A stretch of DNA of 64,000 bases. It comes from a virus. A program made the position numbers and the translations under genes. The notes beneath the pieces were generated by a model. It searched no databases, had not been told where the DNA came from, and saw only the letters and a list, made by a program, of their open reading frames with translations. The stretch spans positions 27,834 to 91,833 of the IMG/VR virus record IMGVR_UViG_3300005613_000024; one strand, written 5' to 3'. Shown here piece after piece: positions 10,340 to 18,422 of this stretch; the stretch's first letter is position 1; each line of letters opens with the position of its first letter.

Positions 10340-10367
10340 TTGACAACTGAAAAATATATGTTATACT
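10340..10367 (+). promoter_or_regulatory. sigma70-type promoter (TTGACA-16-TATACT, extended -10 TG)
   Basis: Intergenic acTTGACAactgaaaaatataTGtTATACTt; same motif recurs at 15267 and 16740. Confidence 0.8.
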
Positions 10368-11429: not shown

Positions 11430-11717
11430 ATGAAATTTTCTAAATCGTATTCAAAATTAAATTATCCTATATTTACTACGATTCGACAAGATAAAGGATA
11501 TTATAAAGTTGGACAGATAATAAATGTAAATACTCCCGAAACCTCTTTCGAGGCTGAAATTTTAGCTATTAGAGAATTATCAAATGCAGATATTACTGAA
11601 AATATGGCAAGAGTAGATGCTGACTGTTCTAAACAGAAATTACAAGGATTAATGAATCTATTTTATAGAGAAAAGGCAGAAGAATTAATTCTATTAACAT
11701 TAGCAAAAATATTATGA
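11430..11717 (+). CDS. ASCH/PUA-like domain protein
   Basis: MKFS...FTTIR...YKVGQII...ARVDA pattern of the ASCH family; start 11412 or 11430 uncertain. Confidence 0.6.
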   Translation: MKFSKSYSKLNYPIFTTIRQDKGYYKVGQIINVNTPETSFEAEILAIRELSNADITENMARVDADCSKQKLQGLMNLFYREKAEELILLTLAKIL

Positions 11718-14700
11718 AAATTCAAAATATTTCAAACAACGGAAAAGATATTTATCTTTTTATTCGTGAAGATGATGAAACTTTAACGATTAAAGAAGAC
11801 CATTCTTTTCTTCCCTACTATTTTGAGCCTACTACAGATAGACAATCCGACGCTGTATCTATTTACGGTCAACCCTTAAAAAAAATCTATTGTAATAATC
11901 CTGGACAAGTAAGAAAACAGAGAAGCGATAGAGCATTTGAAGCTGATATTATATATACTAAGCGTTATATCTTGGATAAAATTCCTATCTTTGAAAAATC
12001 TAAAACAAGAATTATCTATTTCGATATTGAAGTGAACGCAACAGAGCTTCCCCAACCAAAAGAAGAACAATGTGCAAATGACCCTATATCAGTTATAACA
12101 ATCTATGATAATTATACAAAAAAATATAAAACATTTTTCTTAAAGGATTATGAATCTGAATGGAAAATGTTAGATGAATTTTGTAAAACAATTAAAAAAT
12201 TACAACCAGACATTTTAACAGCATGGAATAGTTCATTTGACTATTATTATCTTTATTATCGTATTCAAGATTTTCCTAAAAAAATATCATCTATAGAACA
12301 ATCTCATTGGCGACGAGGATTTGAAATGCCCGCAGGAATATCAATCGTGGATATTATGGGTTTGTATGCAAAGTACACATTACATAAAAAAGACTCATAC
12401 GCTTTAATGAATGTTGCAAATGATGAATTAGATTATGAAATAGAAACAGATTTTGATTTTACAGATTTAGAAGAATCAAAGAGAAAAAATAAACTCGACG
12501 TAAAAAAGATGGTAGAGTTAAATGAAAAGTTGAATTTATTTGAATATTTTGATGAAATTCGTTTATTGACAAGAGCAGACTGGGAAGACCTTCCTAGTGA
12601 AATGAGAGCTTATCAATGGCAAAGTAATAATAGTAAAGTTATAGATATGTTAGCATTAGAAGAAGCTAAAAAATTAAACATTATATTGCCTAGTAAGAAT
12701 CATGAAGGGGAAAAAGGAAATGTTGAAGGAGCTTATCGAGATACATTTGGAACAGGTTTGTATAAAGACTTGGCTAAAGTAGATTTAAGTGGAGCTTATC
12801 CACAGGCTATTATAGACTTTTGTTTATCTCCAGAGAATTATCTTACTAATACAGAATCAAATAGTATTAAAATAGATGTGCTTTATAGAGAATCCAAAGA
12901 TTTTAAAGTCACATATCATCTTAGACAAGATTCAAATACAATTCTTCCAACACTTACATTGAGACTATTAAAGATGAAGAATGAATTAAAAGATACTTTA
13001 ATGAACATGAATTCTGATGACTCAAAATACAAGCAAACTCAAATTGCCTATGATTCTCGCAAAGCTTTAGTAAATTCTGCCTTTGGTGTATTCGGTATGC
13101 CTTATTTTAGATTATACAATTCTAAAGTGGCCGATACTATTACATTTCTTGTTCGAGATTTATTATATTATGTAGAAGCAAAGTTGAATAAAAATAATTA
13201 TAATATTAGATATATAGATACTGACTCTATTTTCTATCAAGGTAGACAAGACATTACAAATAAATTAAATCAATGGGCTATAGAATGGGGAATAGAGAAT
13301 TATGGTAATGAAGATATAAATATTCAGTTTGATTATGAAGGTTATTTTTCCAGTATTTTTATTCAGGCTATGTGTTTAGAAGGGTCTAGTCGTGTCTTAA
13401 CTAATAAAGGTTATATACCAATTAATAAAATTTATAAAAATCCCAATAATTATCAAATAGCATCAGTCGATGAGAATAACAAAGTTGTTTTTAGCTACGC
13501 TAAAAAAGTTTTTAAAGTTCCTCTTTTTAATAGAAAATTATATAAAATTCGTAACGTATCTGCTAATCAAAAACACAGTCAATGTATTTTGACACACGAC
13601 CATCCAATATTAACTCAAGATGGTTGGAAACAAGTGCAAGATTTAAAAGATGATGATAGAGTTCAAATAGATTATTTTCTTCCACATCATGAAATTCGAG
13701 AAGTTATTATCGGAACAATGCTTGGCGACAGCACTATTTATCAAAATTCGCTAAAAGTTACTCATGGCTCAAAACAGAAAGAATACGCTTATTATAAAGC
13801 AAAATTAATTACTGAAAATAATTATAGCGATTTATCTAATGTTGGGAAGGACGGTTATAAACGAATTAAATTATCTACCTTCGCAAATCCTTATTATAAA
13901 TTTTTAGATTGGCTATTTTATAAAGATAGAGATTTGCAAAATAAACATTACTATTTTAAAAGAAAAAAACGAATAACTTCAGAAATTTTAAATGATTTTT
14001 CGATAATTTCTTTAGCTTTCTTATTTATGGATGATGGATATATTAGAAAAACTCGTCAATATAATGGAAATATTGCAACCTGCTGTTTTACAAAAGAAGA
14101 AAATATTTTATTAAGCAATAAAATCAAAGAACTTGGAATAGATAATCAGGTTATCAAAACTGGAAAATATTATCGAATTAATTTTAATTCTAAGCAAATT
14201 AAAATATTGTCGGAAAAAATCGCTCCCTATATACCGAAATGCATGGAATATAAAATTTATCCAGAATATCGAGATATTCCAAAAAAAGAAATTTGTAAAA
14301 TTAGAGAATCAAAGAAAATCATGTATGTGCCATTTACAAAAACACTTTATAATCCTACTTATAAAAATATTCAAGAAGTTTATGATATTGAAATTGAACC
14401 TTATCATAATTTTATAACTCAAACATGTATCGCACATAATTGTAGATATAGAGGAAGATTAGAGCGACCTGAAAAGGGGCAAAAGATTGAAACTAAAGGT
14501 ATACAAATGAAGCGACGAGACTCTGGAAAATGGGTTAAATCTTGGCAAGAAAAGCTATATGATAAAATTTTAGATGGGCAATCTAAAGAAAACTTATTAA
14601 AGTTTATCAAAGAATCTATTGAAGATATGAAAAAAGCTGATATTAGAGAAATTGCATTACCTGTTAAGATTAATAAAAAATCAGAAGATTATAAAACAAC

Positions 14701-15358
14701 TCCTAAATGGTTAAAGCCTTTAGAAGAAGCAAAGAAATTAGTACCAGAATTTGACAAATCAATAGGAGATAGATTTTATATAATCTATTGTAAAAGTGTA
14801 GAAAAAATAGCTTTAGGTAATAAATATTATGAACATATAAAGCAAGAAGATATTGATTGGAAAACTATGATAGAAAAGAATATTTTTAATCTTCTTGTTC
14901 CAATTTTTAAAGGGTTAAACTTAGAAAGAGATTTATTAGATTTAGCAGAAAGTTATGAAACAATTTTGGGAAGTCAACATAGAAATAAACTATTAGAAGA
15001 GTTAGATAATTTTGAAGAATTAAAGAAATATTATTCTGCTAGAGAAGTTAAGAAAAGAATAAAAGAGAAAAATAAAGAATTTTGGGTTAAAAATACGGAA
15101 ACAAATGATGAATATTTAGTCACGAAAGATGCTTATGAAGCTAGTAAAGAAACTTTAGAAATTATCGAACCCAAGAAGAAAGTTCGCAAAAAGAAATCTT
15201 CTAAGTCATTGAAAACAAAGAAGATAATAAAAAATGAGAGTTCGCAAAATAAATTATCAAAAAAACTTGACAAAGTTAAGAACAATATGTTATACTTAGA
15301 TAAAGAATCTGAGTCTATCAAAAAAAGAACTAATGATAAAACTATTGACTGGGACTGA
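11714..15358 (+). CDS. polB: family B DNA polymerase with intein and long charged C-terminal tail
   Basis: Exonuclease motifs FDIE and AWNSSFD; polymerase motifs DLSGAYP, KALVNSAFG, YIDTDS; ETKG...RRD. Confidence 0.95.
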   Translation: MKIQNISNNGKDIYLFIREDDETLTIKEDHSFLPYYFEPTTDRQSDAVSIYGQPLKKIYCNNPGQVRKQRSDRAFEADIIYTKRYILDKIPIFEKSKTRIIYFDIEVNATELPQPKEEQCANDPISVITIYDNYTKKYKTFFLKDYESEWKMLDEFCKTIKKLQPDILTAWNSSFDYYYLYYRIQDFPKKISSIEQSHWRRGFEMPAGISIVDIMGLYAKYTLHKKDSYALMNVANDELDYEIETDFDFTDLEESKRKNKLDVKKMVELNEKLNLFEYFDEIRLLTRADWEDLPSEMRAYQWQSNNSKVIDMLALEEAKKLNIILPSKNHEGEKGNVEGAYRDTFGTGLYKDLAKVDLSGAYPQAIIDFCLSPENYLTNTESNSIKIDVLYRESKDFKVTYHLRQDSNTILPTLTLRLLKMKNELKDTLMNMNSDDSKYKQTQIAYDSRKALVNSAFGVFGMPYFRLYNSKVADTITFLVRDLLYYVEAKLNKNNYNIRYIDTDSIFYQGRQDITNKLNQWAIEWGIENYGNEDINIQFDYEGYFSSIFIQAMCLEGSSRVLTNKGYIPINKIYKNPNNYQIASVDENNKVVFSYAKKVFKVPLFNRKLYKIRNVSANQKHSQCILTHDHPILTQDGWKQVQDLKDDDRVQIDYFLPHHEIREVIIGTMLGDSTIYQNSLKVTHGSKQKEYAYYKAKLITENNYSDLSNVGKDGYKRIKLSTFANPYYKFLDWLFYKDRDLQNKHYYFKRKKRITSEILNDFSIISLAFLFMDDGYIRKTRQYNGNIATCCFTKEENILLSNKIKELGIDNQVIKTGKYYRINFNSKQIKILSEKIAPYIPKCMEYKIYPEYRDIPKKEICKIRESKKIMYVPFTKTLYNPTYKNIQEVYDIEIEPYHNFITQTCIAHNCRYRGRLERPEKGQKIETKGIQMKRRDSGKWVKSWQEKLYDKILDGQSKENLLKFIKESIEDMKKADIREIALPVKINKKSEDYKTTPKWLKPLEEAKKLVPEFDKSIGDRFYIIYCKSVEKIALGNKYYEHIKQEDIDWKTMIEKNIFNLLVPIFKGLNLERDLLDLAESYETILGSQHRNKLLEELDNFEELKKYYSAREVKKRIKEKNKEFWVKNTETNDEYLVTKDAYEASKETLEIIEPKKKVRKKKSSKSLKTKKIIKNESSQNKLSKKLDKVKNNMLYLDKESESIKKRTNDKTIDWD
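13373..14440 (+). mobile_element. intein (356 aa) with LAGLIDADG endonuclease in PolB
   Basis: CLEGSSRVLT...THDHPIL...GTMLGDS...FMDDG...IAHN followed by Cys. Confidence 0.95.
15267..15296 (+). promoter_or_regulatory. sigma70-type promoter embedded in the 3' end of polB (TTGACA-18-TATACT)
   Basis: acTTGACAaagttaagaacaataTGtTATACTt, ~60 nt upstream of the ABC-GNAT start. Confidence 0.7.
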
Positions 15359-16743
15359 TGAAAAAAATAAAAACAAAAGATTTCTGTATTTCTCACTCCT
15401 TTAAAACCAAAAGTGAAATTACAGATAGAACTATACTCGTTTCTGAGGCTTTTGGCTTAGGAATTGATGATGAAAAAGAATTCTGTATTTATGATAATTT
15501 TAAATTTCAACTTCGGTCAAATGATATTGTTTATGTAACAGGAAGTTCTGGTAGTGGAAAATCCTGGATTCTGAGAAATACTTTTTCTAAATTTAAAAAT
15601 AGTGTTTCGATAGACGAAATCAAAATTGATGACAATGAAATATTAATAGAGGGCGTTGGACAAGATTTGAATGATGCTTTAAAAAAGCTAAATTTAGCAG
15701 GTCTTGGAGACGCCTTTCTTTATTTAAGAAAATATTCACAGTTATCTGATGGGCAAAAATATCGTTATAAAATAGCAAAATTTATAGACCTAAATGCTGA
15801 TATTTGGATTATTGATGAAGCATGTGCTAAATTAGATAGAACAACTGCAAAAATAGTTTCTTATAATTTACAGAAAATTGCCAGAAGATTAAATAAATGC
15901 GTTATTTGTGCTACAACTCATGAAGATTTACATAATGCTTTAAAGCCTTCTCTTATTATTAAAAAAGGATTTGAATCTGATGTTTCTGTAGAGCGAAAAG
16001 AATTATCAGATTATTCAAAAAAAATAGATGAAATCTACGATACTGTTAAAGTTGATATTGGTACAAAAACAGATTATGAAAAATTAAAACGATTTCATTA
16101 TCGTCAAGCAAATCTTGGGGCGGTAAAAAATATTTATAAGATGACTTTAAATAATGAAATTATAGGAGTTATAGTTATTACTTATCCTCATTTAGCATTA
16201 AAGGGAAGAAATATTTATACAAAAAAGAAATATTCTAAAATGACAAAAGAAAATTGTAAAATGATTAATGAGAAATTCGAATGCATCGCTCGTATTATTT
16301 TACATCCTCAATATAGAGGGTTGGGATTGGCTTATCATTTTTTAAAAGAATATTTTAAATTAAGTGAATCTGATTATATAGAAACTGTTGCAGTTATGGC
16401 AAACTATACTCCATTTTTTGAGAAAGCTGGAATGAAAAAGATAAATACAAAACAAGATGAAAAGAGAACACAGATGATTGCAGAATTAGAAAATTATGGA
16501 TTTAATATAGCGTTATTATCAAGTGTAAGATATAATACAGACATTTTTAATAAATTATCTGAAAAAGAACAAATTGAAGTTAAAGGTATTGTGAAAAAGA
16601 TTTTAAATCGTTATAAGGGGCAAATAGTTAAATTATTTTCGAAAGATAAGTCATTAGATGAAATAATAGAAGAAGATTTATTTAAAGTTATGAAAGAAAT
16701 TCAAAGAGCAAATACTGTTTATTTAATTTTAGATAGGACTTGA
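15358..16743 (+). CDS. ABC-type ATPase fused to GNAT/Mom-like acetyltransferase (COG2401-like)
   Basis: Walker A GSSGSGKS, signature LSDGQ, Walker B IIDE, H-loop TTH; C-terminal LKRFHY and ARIILHPQYRGLGLA acetyl-CoA motif. Confidence 0.9.
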   Translation: MKKIKTKDFCISHSFKTKSEITDRTILVSEAFGLGIDDEKEFCIYDNFKFQLRSNDIVYVTGSSGSGKSWILRNTFSKFKNSVSIDEIKIDDNEILIEGVGQDLNDALKKLNLAGLGDAFLYLRKYSQLSDGQKYRYKIAKFIDLNADIWIIDEACAKLDRTTAKIVSYNLQKIARRLNKCVICATTHEDLHNALKPSLIIKKGFESDVSVERKELSDYSKKIDEIYDTVKVDIGTKTDYEKLKRFHYRQANLGAVKNIYKMTLNNEIIGVIVITYPHLALKGRNIYTKKKYSKMTKENCKMINEKFECIARIILHPQYRGLGLAYHFLKEYFKLSESDYIETVAVMANYTPFFEKAGMKKINTKQDEKRTQMIAELENYGFNIALLSSVRYNTDIFNKLSEKEQIEVKGIVKKILNRYKGQIVKLFSKDKSLDEIIEEDLFKVMKEIQRANTVYLILDRT

Positions 16744-16768
16744 CAAATAGCTATTTATATGTTATACT
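16740..16768 (+). promoter_or_regulatory. sigma70-type promoter (TTGACA-17-TATACT); the -35 box overlaps the upstream TGA stop
   Basis: acTTGACAaatagctatttataTGtTATACTt. Confidence 0.85.
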
Positions 16769-17876: not shown

Positions 17877-18024
17877 AAAAATAATTAAAAAACAAAAATG
17901 TAGATGCAATGGTAAGAAAAAAAATTGTAAATCGTGTAATAATACTGGTACTTTCAAAGACCATATTTATTATCATATAGATAAAAAGAATAAAGTTTGT
18001 TTTTCAGGAGATACTATAAAATAA
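17863..18024 (+). CDS. small DnaJ-type zinc-finger-like protein (53 aa), absent from ORF track
   Basis: GGAG RBS; CRCNG...CKSCNNTG; stop coupled to the mgtC ATG. Confidence 0.55.
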   Translation: MSIIKKIIKKQKCRCNGKKKNCKSCNNTGTFKDHIYYHIDKKNKVCFSGDTIK

Positions 18025-18422
18025 TGTTTAGATTAATTTTAGCAATAATTACTGGTTATTTATTAGGCTACGAAAGAAAGAAGAAAGATAAAAGTGGCGG
18101 AAGTAGAACAATGTCTCTTATATGTACAAGTGCTTGTTTAGTTGCTATTGTGAGTTTGGATATATCTTCTCGCCATACATTAAATTTATTTCGTTTAATG
18201 CAGGGCTTTATTCAAGGTGTAGGCTTTATTGGAATGGGATTAATTTTTAAAAATAAAGGTCATGTAGAAGGTTTAACCACAGCTTCTTGTTTATTAATGA
18301 ATGTTGTTATTGGATTTTTATATGGATTGGGGTATTTTCTGTATGCCATGACAAGTGCAGTATTCAGTCTAATAATCTTAGAATCGAAATACTGGAAATC
18401 AAGGAGAAGAAATAATGAGTAA
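18024..18422 (+). CDS. mgtC: MgtC/SapB family membrane protein
   Basis: RLILAII.G.LLGYER...GGSRT, GVGFIGMG, GLTTA motifs; start 18024 supported by AGGAG RBS and coupling. Confidence 0.85.
   Translation: MFRLILAIITGYLLGYERKKKDKSGGSRTMSLICTSACLVAIVSLDISSRHTLNLFRLMQGFIQGVGFIGMGLIFKNKGHVEGLTTASCLLMNVVIGFLYGLGYFLYAMTSAVFSLIILESKYWKSRRRNNE

What the first reader, a model, noticed from the sequence alone, without database searches (positions are those of the whole stretch)
15267..16768. ABC-ATPase/GNAT (Mom-like) gene coupled to PolB and bracketed by two promoters
Seen: the ATG overlaps the polB stop; a consensus promoter is hidden in the last ~90 nt of polB; and the gene's TGA stop forms part of the next TTGACA box. 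There is no membrane partner, so it is not a transporter. Established: the soluble ABC-ATPase/acetyltransferase fusion (COG2401) is uncharacterised, and Mu Mom is a GNAT-fold DNA adenine-modifying enzyme. Inference: an ATP-driven, replication-linked DNA acylation (anti-restriction) system, or an acetylase of host proteins or tRNA.
Basis: partly seen in the sequence, partly recalled or inferred. Interest (0 to 1): 0.7.

Follow-up and report, generated by a model that had tools for sequence, protein, structure and literature searches.

The report
Polymerase-coupled ATPase-acyltransferase, probable DNA-base acylase
This phage gene, read straight off the end of the DNA polymerase gene, encodes an ATP-driven acyltransferase that carries the active-site residues of the only enzymes known to acylate nucleic-acid bases, so it probably marks the phage's new DNA, though nobody has tested any member of this widespread family.

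Summary
Window 15358-16743 (+) encodes a 461-aa soluble ABC-type ATPase fused to a GNAT domain. Its ATG overlaps the polB stop (TGATG). Two near-identical sigma70-type promoters flank it, and the second contains the gene's TGA. No permease gene lies nearby.

The family is large and has no experimental characterisation in the literature I searched. Iyer et al. predicted it to acylate a DNA nucleobase (2013, as cited in their 2021 paper). This scan has noted it on other DNA many times, including PolB fusions.

Findings here:
- Close relatives keep the module beside, or fused in one ORF with, PolB, PolA or DnaE.
- Distant relatives place it beside the terminase, often with ParB.
- The GNAT keeps an acyl-CoA-type loop.
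- It has an invariant His-Tyr pair and a beta4 Arg that align with the His-Tyr pair and Arg of TmcA and Mom. The pair is catalytic in NAT10 and conserved in TmcA. In Mom, alanine at either residue drastically cuts activity.
- Mom is the top, but tied, structural match.

Best reading (about 0.5): ATP- and acyl-CoA-dependent acylation of a base amine in replicating phage DNA. It is not a member of the Mom or TmcA families. It is a new member of a known, predicted kind.

The parts
11714..15358 (+). polB (family B DNA polymerase with a LAGLIDADG intein), the upstream gene to which the ABC-GNAT gene is translationally coupled
   Evidence: ORF list. Pfam DNA_pol_B E 7e-22, LAGLIDADG_2 E 1.6e-22, Intein_splicing E 3.8e-8.
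15267..15296 (+). Promoter-like site P1 inside the polB 3' end: TTGACA, 18-nt spacer, TG, TATACT
   Evidence: 11 of 12 consensus matches, TG present. Shares TATGTTATACTTAG exactly with P2.
15358..16743 (+). ABC-ATPase/GNAT gene, 461 aa (P0001)
   Evidence: Full-length model pLDDT 89, pTM 0.83.
15358..15996 (+). ABC-type ATPase domain (residues 1-213). Motifs: Walker A GSSGSGKS 15541-15564; signature LSDGQ 15742-15756; Walker B IWIIDE 15802-15819; H-loop His188 15919-15921. The helical subdomain is short and the Q-loop Gln is not conserved.
   Evidence: Pfam and NCBIfam ABC hits. Invariant columns G62, S64, G65, G67, K68, S130, G132, Q133, D153, E154 in A1; H188 and S69 are nearly invariant. 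Foldseek matches ABC nucleotide-binding domains only.
16045..16740 (+). GNAT domain (residues about 230-461). Features: His247-Tyr248 at 16096-16101; Arg312 in beta4 at 16291-16293; acyl-CoA-type loop RGLGLA at 16315-16332; helical insertion between beta6 and beta7 at about 16444-16713; invariant Tyr455 in beta7.
   Evidence: Models. Fold searches. Invariant columns. hhalign to Mom and TmcA.
16740..16768 (+). Promoter-like site P2. Its TTGACA contains the gene's TGA stop. It would drive the downstream cassette.
10340..10367 (+). Promoter-like site P0 of the same type, at the head of the exonuclease-to-polB block

Best explanation
The gene encodes a soluble two-domain enzyme. An ABC-type ATPase, presumably working as an ATP-sandwich dimer, drives or gates a GNAT acyltransferase. 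The GNAT uses an acyl-CoA, most simply acetyl-CoA, to acylate the exocyclic amine of a base in nucleic acid. The target is most likely the phage's own DNA as it is replicated. It works like TmcA/NAT10 (P-loop ATPase plus GNAT making N4-acetylcytidine) but on the kind of substrate Mom acts on (phage DNA). In this phage it is made together with PolB, through stop-start overlap and its own promoter. In close relatives it is part of the polymerase polypeptide. In other virus lineages the same module sits at the terminase genes, often with a ParB-type partner. The likely biological use is masking phage DNA from host nucleases. Shown here: domain architecture, intact motifs, gene fusions and neighbourhoods, and shared active-site residues by alignment. 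Inferred: the substrate (DNA), the donor (acyl-CoA), the role of ATP, and the anti-restriction purpose.
For: Architecture and motifs:
- The protein is an ABC ATPase plus a GNAT fold, with invariant Walker A and B, signature and acyl-CoA-type loop RGLGLA, and a nearly invariant H-loop His.

Linkage to DNA enzymes:
- PolB-ABC-GNAT occurs in one ORF in L005-L007 and in at least 14 further protein clusters (P0122-P0130, P0132-P0135, P0139).
- ABC-GNAT-UDG-exo-PolA occurs in one ORF (L008 = P0131).
- ABC-GNAT is followed by UDG-PolA in L004 and L009, and by DnaE in L018/L019.
- In Enterococcus phage 9184 the order is DNA polymerase, ABC, GNAT.
- In a tree, PolB-fused, PolA-linked and free forms are interleaved within one clade, so the linkage outlived a change of polymerase family.
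- TerL lies directly upstream in 74 of 145 archaeal viral and MAG loci.
- ParB_N, ABC, GNAT, terS/TerL is the order in Lactococcus phage P335 and in SSU5-like phages.
- ParB_N-ABC-GNAT single-chain forms of about 630 aa exist.

Active site:
- FHY is present in 149 of 149 family members and the beta4 Arg motif in 145 of 149.
- hhalign puts H247/Y248 on E. coli TmcA H377/Y378 and ISRVVVHP on VSRIAVHP.
- hhalign puts H247/Y248 on Mom H58/Y59 and R312 on Mom R111 (profile against profile, probability 83%, E 9e-6).
- His548/Tyr549 are the catalytic pair of NAT10 and are conserved in TmcA (bioRxiv 10.1101/2024.03.27.587050).
- Alanine at H58 or Y59 and R111K drastically reduce Mom activity, and R111 is essential for catalysis (PMC13219725).
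- RimI, a protein acetylase, aligns only over the CoA loop and lacks both features.

Structure:
- Mom (8bv8) is rank 1 in pdb_via (Z 13.7, rmsd 3.0, 141 aligned) and rank 2 in the wide search (Z 12.7), tied with generic GNATs.
- TmcA, Mom and NAT10 are all among the Foldseek matches with E below 5e-4 (ranks 4, 6 and 21).
- Viral-library hits include named Mom proteins.
- The helical insertion lies between beta6 and beta7, the site of Mom's essential HTH-like insertion.

Literature:
- Iyer et al. [quoted passage not shown] They name Tenacibaculum phage pT24, which is a tblastn hit of this protein (E 8e-13).

Complex prediction:
- PolB 905-1214 with ABC-GNAT gave weak support only. The score was 0.32 against 0.00 for the best control. 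The mark was reached by 58 of 80 solved complexes and 2 of 110 mismatched pairs, but at 0.60 or under by only 7 of those 80 and by both mismatches. The runs agree in at least 27% of contacts and the partner's pLDDT is at least 75.
Against: - No modification has been measured in any member of the family.
- Overall similarity to Mom and TmcA is no better than to generic GNATs. Single-sequence hhalign gives RimI E 5e-4, TmcA GNAT 3e-3 and Mom 7e-3. BLASTP against TmcA is not significant. The Pfam Mom model does not match and no other specialised GNAT model is listed. The structural Z scores are tied within 1.
- The alignments that show the His-Tyr pair and the Arg are driven partly by those same conserved columns.
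- No recognisable DNA-binding domain was found.
- This phage has no ParB_N, ASCH, amidoligase or N6/N4 methylase.
- Simple N6-acyl-adenine is reported to be chemically unstable (abstract of PMC13219725), which narrows the plausible products.
- Gene linkage to polymerases would also fit an enzyme that acetylates replisome proteins or nucleotides.
Confidence: 0.5

Rival explanations
1. It is an RNA cytidine (or other base) acetyltransferase, a phage analogue of TmcA/NAT10. It would act on host or phage tRNA, rRNA or RNA primers. Its position next to polymerase genes would reflect only co-expression with early or middle genes.
For: The closest motif-level match is to TmcA: HYR, SR(I/V)xVHP and a canonical CoA loop. 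The overall plan, a P-loop ATPase plus a GNAT, is the same as in TmcA/NAT10.
Against: No tRNA-binding or THUMP-like domain was found. The ATPase is of ABC type, not a RecD-like helicase. Covalent fusion to PolB or PolA, and linkage to DnaE, terminase and ParB in independent lineages, point to DNA.
Confidence: 0.15
2. It is a protein acetyltransferase that modifies a replisome or packaging protein, or a host factor such as a defence protein or RNA polymerase. The ABC domain would act as an ATP-dependent clamp or specificity module.
For: Most GNATs acetylate proteins or small molecules. Structural neighbours within 1 Z unit include RimI, Ard1/Naa and HP0935. Phage GNATs that acetylate host proteins are known, for example Rac of phiKMV-like phages as cited in PMC7824862. 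Fusion to a polymerase would also bring such an enzyme to the replisome.
Against: The invariant His-Tyr pair and beta4 Arg are shared with the base-acylating GNATs and are absent from RimI. The module keeps its linkage while the polymerase family changes (PolB, PolA, DnaE) and also sits with terminase and ParB. A single conserved protein substrate is therefore unlikely.
Confidence: 0.15
3. It acts on free nucleotides or another small molecule, for example by acylating a dNTP or a precursor before incorporation, or it is the ATPase subunit of a transporter or resistance system.
For: The ABC domain scores best against transporter nucleotide-binding domains. Deposited records label the homologues 'ABC transporter'. 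Some neighbours are nucleotide-metabolism genes: a deoxyguanosine kinase in phage 9184 and an adenylosuccinate-synthetase-like gene in L016.
Against: No permease gene lies nearby. The helical subdomain that contacts permeases is shortened and the Q-loop Gln is not conserved. The only fusion partners identified by Pfam are polymerases, ParB_N domains and inteins, never a membrane domain. Mom and TmcA/NAT10 act on polymers.
Confidence: 0.07

Closest known systems
Phage and archaeal 'GNAT coupled with an ABC ATPase' module, predicted to acylate a DNA nucleobase (Iyer et al. NAR 2013, as cited in Iyer et al. Viruses 2021, PMC7824862). Also labelled COG2401 / MK0520-type 'ABC-type ATPase fused to a predicted acetyltransferase', and PHROGs 11143, 293 and 886.
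   Same: It has the same two-domain protein. It is homologous to named members: Tenacibaculum phage pT24 (E 8e-13), the SSU5 and Cyrano 'MK0520 protein' pair, and PHROG hits at E 1e-28 to 4e-25. It shows the same association with DNA-handling genes.
   Different: Here the module is unfused to, but translationally coupled with, PolB, and it has its own promoter. This phage has no ParB partner. The family's activity remains only predicted.
TmcA / NAT10 / Kre33 RNA cytidine N4-acetyltransferases
   Same: Both have a P-loop ATPase N-terminal to a GNAT. Both have a canonical acetyl-CoA loop. The His-Tyr pair and the SR(I/V)xVHP beta4 motif align. The pair is catalytic in NAT10. TmcA and NAT10 appear among the Foldseek matches with E below 5e-4.
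   Different: The ATPase is of ABC type, not a RecD-like helicase. There is no DUF1726 or tRNA-binding domain. No Pfam or BLASTP match was found. The genomic context points to DNA, not RNA.
Bacteriophage Mu Mom (Pfam PF25680), DNA adenine N6 hypermodification
   Same: Both are phage GNATs acting in a DNA context. Mom is the nominal best structural match (Z 13.7 and 12.7). The His-Tyr pair and beta4 Arg align. Both have an insertion between beta6 and beta7. Some Mom homologues also sit next to ParB-like genes, for example in phage MenE.
   Different: Mom uses Gly-tRNA(Gly) and has NSES where the CoA loop would be. Mom has no ATPase. The Mom HMM does not match this protein. The insertion here is about 90 aa of helices, against about 35 aa in Mom.
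Terminase-linked ParB / ABC / GNAT cassettes of SSU5-like phage-plasmids, Lactococcus P335, Firmicutes prophages and Bathyarchaeia tailed viruses
   Same: They contain a homologous ABC-GNAT core at 33-45% identity.
   Different: Those cassettes sit at the packaging genes, often with ParB_N fused or adjacent, and are sometimes split into two genes. The window's clade sits at the polymerase gene.
ABC transporter nucleotide-binding subunits
   Same: Walker A, signature, Walker B, D-loop and H-loop are present. The best HMM and fold matches of the N-terminal half are these proteins.
   Different: There is no permease. The helical subdomain is shortened: 62 residues separate the Walker A Lys from the signature Ser. 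There is no conserved Q-loop Gln. The protein is fused to a GNAT.

Membership tests
ABC-ATPase/GNAT module (COG2401/MK0520 type; predicted DNA-base acylation system of Iyer et al.) | N-terminal ABC-type ATPase with intact nucleotide-binding motifs | tested here: met
   Pfam ABC_tran E 5e-12. Walker A and B and the signature are invariant, and the H-loop His is nearly invariant, in 34 homologues.
ABC-ATPase/GNAT module (COG2401/MK0520 type; predicted DNA-base acylation system of Iyer et al.) | C-terminal GNAT-fold domain in the same protein or the next gene | tested here: met
   The model has pLDDT 90.9 and a GNAT fold at Z about 13. The RGLGLA loop is present.
ABC-ATPase/GNAT module (COG2401/MK0520 type; predicted DNA-base acylation system of Iyer et al.) | Sequence homology to named members (pT24, SSU5/Cyrano 'MK0520 protein', PHROGs 11143/293/886) | tested here: met
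ABC-ATPase/GNAT module (COG2401/MK0520 type; predicted DNA-base acylation system of Iyer et al.) | Neighbourhood of DNA-handling genes (polymerase, terminase, ParB) | tested here: met
   PolB lies directly upstream here. Relatives are fused or adjacent to PolB, PolA, DnaE, TerL or ParB. ParB itself is absent from this genome.
ABC-ATPase/GNAT module (COG2401/MK0520 type; predicted DNA-base acylation system of Iyer et al.) | Acyl transfer to a DNA base | not testable with these tools
   No biochemical data exist for any member in the literature searched.
Mom (PF25680) | Match to the Mom family profile | tested here: not met
   PF25680 is not listed for the C-terminal half at E up to 10. It has no match in the whole phage genome. 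Profile-profile hhalign gives only probability 83%, E 9e-6.
Mom (PF25680) | Active-site H58/Y59 and R111 equivalents | tested here: met
   H247/Y248 and R312 align to them and are invariant in the family. This rests on alignment, not on superposed coordinates.
Mom (PF25680) | NSES (S124) segment in place of the CoA pyrophosphate loop, and a Gly-tRNA donor | tested here: not met
   The family has the canonical loop R-G-L-G-L-A. Donor use itself is not testable here.
Mom (PF25680) | Essential insertion between beta6 and beta7 | tested here: inconclusive
   An insertion is present at the same topological site (residues about 363-452). It is longer, and its homology to Mom's HTH-like insert is not shown.
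TmcA/NAT10 | RecD-like helicase ATPase and DUF1726 N-terminal to the GNAT, and a tRNA-binding C-terminal domain | tested here: not met
   Pfam finds ABC_tran instead and no tRNA-binding domain.
TmcA/NAT10 | Catalytic His-Tyr pair and an acetyl-CoA loop in the GNAT | tested here: met
   hhalign aligns FHYR with TmcA AHYR (H377/Y378), ISRVVVHP with VSRIAVHP, and the R-x-x-G-x-G loops.
TmcA/NAT10 | Significant overall sequence similarity to the family | tested here: not met
   BLASTP E 6. hhalign E 3e-3, no better than RimI. No Pfam hit was listed.
ABC transporter ATP-binding subunit | Cognate permease gene, and a full helical subdomain with Q-loop for coupling to it | tested here: not met
   No multi-pass membrane gene lies within about 5 kb. 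The helical subdomain is short and the Q-loop position is not conserved.

The most novel reading that the evidence does not exclude
The ABC-GNAT module writes an acyl mark not yet documented in any virus. The product would be N4-acetyl- or acyl-deoxycytidine, or a rearranged acyl-purine. The mark would be placed on phage DNA as it leaves the polymerase, or in other lineages as it enters the capsid. The ABC ATPase would play the role that the helicase plays in NAT10. This would make the family the DNA counterpart of the RNA ac4C writers and a relative of Mom that uses acyl-CoA.
Probability: 0.35. Interest if true: 0.85.

Novelty: new member of a known kind. Interest (0 to 1): 0.55.

Why it matters
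This family is among the more widespread phage and archaeal-virus gene modules with no assigned biochemistry. It gave 289 confirmed viral loci in IMG/VR and 322 confirmed stretches in the one-genome-per-species collection. It is routinely mislabelled as an ABC transporter, and even as a DNA polymerase.

If it acylates DNA bases, it would add a new class of DNA modification enzyme. It would also supply the DNA counterpart of the ac4C machinery and explain why the module travels with polymerases and terminases.

The shared His-Tyr pair and Arg give precise point mutants for a clean test. This particular copy adds little beyond other members. Its use is as a compact, unfused version with a defined promoter that would be easy to express.

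Tried and rejected
- Transporter reading: rejected, because there is no permease and the coupling subdomain is shortened.
- PolB-ABC fusion by -1 slippage at the A7 run (15320-15326): rejected. The ABC frame has a TGA at 15346-15348, 12 nt upstream of the ATG (read), so the two proteins are separate here.
- Partner genes seen with relatives: none was found in this 91.8-kb phage. The searches covered ParB_N, Amidoligase_2, N6_N4 methylase, ASCH and Mom.
- Nucleotide search of the region against GenBank phages: no match.
- Foldseek with the full-length model returned only ABC nucleotide-binding domains. The C-terminal half was therefore folded and searched on its own.
- Sequence search of the C-terminal-half profile against PDB: only weak generic GNAT hits, best 2gan at E 4.6e-4.
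- PADLOC: only ABC-domain similarity to MADS components. I did not take this as a defence-system membership.
- BLASTP against E. coli TmcA: not significant.
- Literature searches for COG2401, MK0520, and SSU5 with acetyltransferase and ParB found nothing relevant. The 2013 paper by Iyer et al. is not held in the library, so it is cited only through the 2021 paper.
The genomic context of the closest stand-alone homologues (P0002-P0025) therefore could not be read.
- One pfam call failed on a wrong reading frame and was resent.
Full report
**What is there.** The window belongs to a complete 91,833-bp virus genome with direct terminal repeats. The DNA around the gene has 26.5% G+C. The ORF 15358-16743 (+) encodes 461 aa. 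The upstream gene (11714-15358) is a family B DNA polymerase interrupted by a LAGLIDADG intein. Its TGA ends at 15358, which is also the A of the next ATG (TGATG). The ABC reading frame carries a TGA at 15346-15348, so the two proteins are separate here and are probably made by termination-reinitiation.

**Promoters.** TTGACA-N18-TATACT at 15267-15296 lies inside the polB 3' end. TTGACA-N17-TATACT at 16740-16768 contains the gene's stop codon. A third site lies at 10340-10367. All three share TG-extended -10 boxes within TATGTTATACT. The relaxed pattern occurs 4 times in the window against 0.48 expected, and 0 of 100 shuffles reach 4. The same motif flanks the ABC-GNAT + polymerase unit in the related contigs L004 and L009. 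It is therefore a genuine recurring signal of this phage group, although activity was not tested.

**The protein.**
- The N-terminal half (about residues 1-213) is an ABC-type ATPase with Walker A, LSDGQ signature, Walker B with the catalytic Glu, D-loop and H-loop. Walker A and B and the signature are invariant in 34 homologues, and the H-loop His is nearly invariant.
- Only 62 residues separate the Walker A Lys from the signature Ser, and the Q-loop position is not conserved.
- No permease gene lies nearby.
- The only fusion partners that Pfam identifies in homologues are polymerases, ParB_N domains and inteins, never a membrane domain. It is not a transporter subunit.
- The C-terminal half is a GNAT fold (pLDDT 90.9; Z about 13 to many GNATs).
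- It has a canonical acyl-CoA pyrophosphate loop (R320-G-L-G-L-A325).
- It has a helical insertion of about 90 residues between beta6 and beta7.

**Family and contexts.** The family is large. It gave 834 database hits in a capped search, 289 confirmed stretches in IMG/VR, and 322 confirmed stretches in the one-genome-per-species collection. Among the best 80 of the latter, most are Bathyarchaeia MAGs. Three kinds of context recur.

(a) The window's own clade, at 55-81% identity, is tied to replicative polymerases.
- PolB-ABC-GNAT occurs as one ORF in L005-L007 and in at least 14 more protein clusters.
- ABC-GNAT-UDG-exo-PolA occurs as one ORF (L008 = P0131).
- ABC-GNAT is followed by UDG-PolA in L004 and L009.
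- A more distant member is followed by DnaE (L018/L019).
- In Enterococcus phage 9184 the order is DNA polymerase, ABC, GNAT. The GNAT there is mis-annotated as a DNA polymerase.
- In a FastTree of the ABC-GNAT part, PolB-fused, PolA-linked and free forms interleave within one clade. The linkage therefore survived a change of polymerase family.

(b) In Bathyarchaeia viruses and proviruses the gene lies directly downstream of TerL. This holds in 74 of 145 loci. The gene ends a same-strand block, and the contig often stops just after it.

(c) In several bacterial phages the module sits next to the terminase genes.
- In SSU5-like phage-plasmids, two ParB-like genes precede the split ABC and GNAT genes, just upstream of the packaging genes.
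- In Lactococcus P335 a ParB_N gene precedes ABC and GNAT, just upstream of terS/TerL.
- In Firmicutes prophages ABC-GNAT is followed by an Amidoligase_2 gene, TerL and the portal gene. No ParB was identified there.
- In Gordonia phages the homologue is gene 2, near the left end of the record. Its neighbours were not examined.
- Many archaeal forms have ParB_N fused in front.

Every context is a DNA transaction.

**Comparison with characterised enzymes.** By fold, Mom of phage Mu is the nominal best PDB match: Z 13.7 with rmsd 3.0 over 141 residues in the second look, and Z 12.7 at rank 2 in the wide search. It is tied within 1 Z with ordinary GNATs. Foldseek places TmcA, Mom and NAT10 among its matches with E below 5e-4, at ranks 4, 6 and 21. 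The viral structure library returns named Mom proteins among its hits, at ranks 8 and 14.

The more telling result is at the residue level.
- The family has an invariant F-H-Y-R/K motif in the loop after helix alpha1. It is present in 149 of 149 members.
- It has an invariant Arg in beta4 (ISRVVVHP), present in 145 of 149.
- hhalign places these on E. coli TmcA H377/Y378 and on VSRIAVHP.
- With a 10-sequence Mom profile, it places them on Mom H58/Y59 and R111 (probability 83%, E 9e-6).
- The NAT10 structure paper identifies His548/Tyr549 as the catalytic pair. The pair is conserved in TmcA and sits on a loop that touches the ATPase domain.
- The 2026 Mom paper reports that H58A, Y59A and R111K drastically reduce activity and that R111 is essential for catalysis.
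- RimI, a protein acetylase, aligns only over the CoA loop and has neither feature.

**Limits of that comparison.** Single-sequence hhalign scores for TmcA and Mom are no better than for RimI. BLASTP against TmcA is not significant. The Mom Pfam model does not match. The protein is therefore not a member of either family. It shares their active-site pattern. Unlike Mom, which uses Gly-tRNA(Gly) and has NSES in place of the CoA loop, it keeps the acyl-CoA loop, as TmcA does.

**Most likely mechanism.** I rate this at about 0.5 confidence. It is an ATP-dependent, acyl-CoA-dependent acylation of a base's exocyclic amine in phage DNA.
- The ABC ATPase would play the part of the NAT10/TmcA helicase, engaging the substrate and positioning the loop that carries the His-Tyr pair.
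- Coupling or fusion to the polymerase would deliver the enzyme to new DNA.
- The terminase- and ParB-linked versions would act before packaging.
- Protection from host nucleases is the obvious use, by analogy with Mom.
- The Mom paper reports that simple N6-acyl-adenine is unstable, so N4-acyl-cytosine or a rearranged product is more plausible.

**Rivals.** These are an RNA acetyltransferase (0.15), a protein acetyltransferase of replisome or host proteins (0.15), and a nucleotide or small-molecule enzyme or transporter subunit (0.07).

**Complex prediction.** A prediction of the PolB C-terminal part with ABC-GNAT gave weak support only. The score was 0.32 against 0.00 for the best control. 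The mark was reached by 58 of 80 solved complexes and 2 of 110 mismatched pairs, but at 0.60 or under by only 7 of those 80 and by both mismatches. The runs agree in at least 27% of contacts and the partner's pLDDT is at least 75. The PolB fragment itself folded poorly (pLDDT 37-42).

**Prior knowledge and novelty.** I found no experimental work on the family. Iyer et al. [quoted passage not shown] That phage is a hit of this protein. The 2013 source paper is not held, so I could not read it.

Earlier notes of this scan describe the same module on other DNA. They include PolB fusions and the SSU5-type cassette. I reached the same contexts independently here. This copy is therefore a new member of a known, computationally predicted kind.

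The session adds two things. First, the His-Tyr pair and Arg link the family to NAT10/TmcA and Mom. Second, the polymerase linkage persists across polymerase families. Both make the hypothesis directly testable with point mutants and nucleoside mass spectrometry.

Noticed in passing
window 11714-15358: PolB is interrupted by an intein with a LAGLIDADG homing endonuclease (Pfam Intein_splicing residues 569-909, LAGLIDADG_2 residues 662-831).
   Followed up: partly
P0121, P0138, P0140 (homologues): Inteins (Intein_splicing in all three, LAGLIDADG_3 in two) are inserted inside the ABC-GNAT genes of relatives. Inteins are usually found in conserved replication genes.
   Followed up: no
L016:9500-10576: In one 96-kb viral contig the ABC-GNAT gene is followed, with overlap, by a short (358 aa) adenylosuccinate-synthetase-like gene. 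It could be a PurZ-type enzyme of 2-aminoadenine genomes.
   Followed up: no
L164 (Enterococcus phage 9184) 4663-5493: ORF024, deposited as 'DNA polymerase', is a GNAT domain (Acetyltransf_1 E 4e-6). The local order is DNA polymerase, ABC ATPase, GNAT, deoxyguanosine kinase.
   Followed up: partly
L173 (Microbacterium phage MenE) 969-2228: A ParB-like gene, a Mom-like acetyltransferase gene and a tRNA-Gly(CCC) gene lie side by side. This fits Mom's Gly-tRNA donor and parallels the pairing of ParB with ABC-GNAT.
   Followed up: no
L011-L083 (Bathyarchaeia-type viral contigs): The contig often ends in or just after the ABC-GNAT gene: 33 of 80 within 700 nt downstream, while the upstream flank is usually full length. 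This suggests a genome end or an assembly break next to the terminase block.
   Followed up: partly
L009:7989-9388: In one close relative the ABC-GNAT gene is broken into ORFs of 124 and 270 aa ahead of an intact UDG-PolA gene. The cause could be a frameshift, a sequencing error or decay.
   Followed up: no
L010, L054, L085, L087 (Firmicutes prophages): ABC-GNAT is followed by an Amidoligase_2 (PF12224) gene and then, in L085 where the downstream genes were scanned, TerL and the portal gene. The amidoligase could further process an acyl mark.
   Followed up: partly
window 17997-18422: A 141-aa ORF with three hydrophobic segments is the only membrane-like protein near the gene. It is too small to be an ABC permease.
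   Followed up: partly
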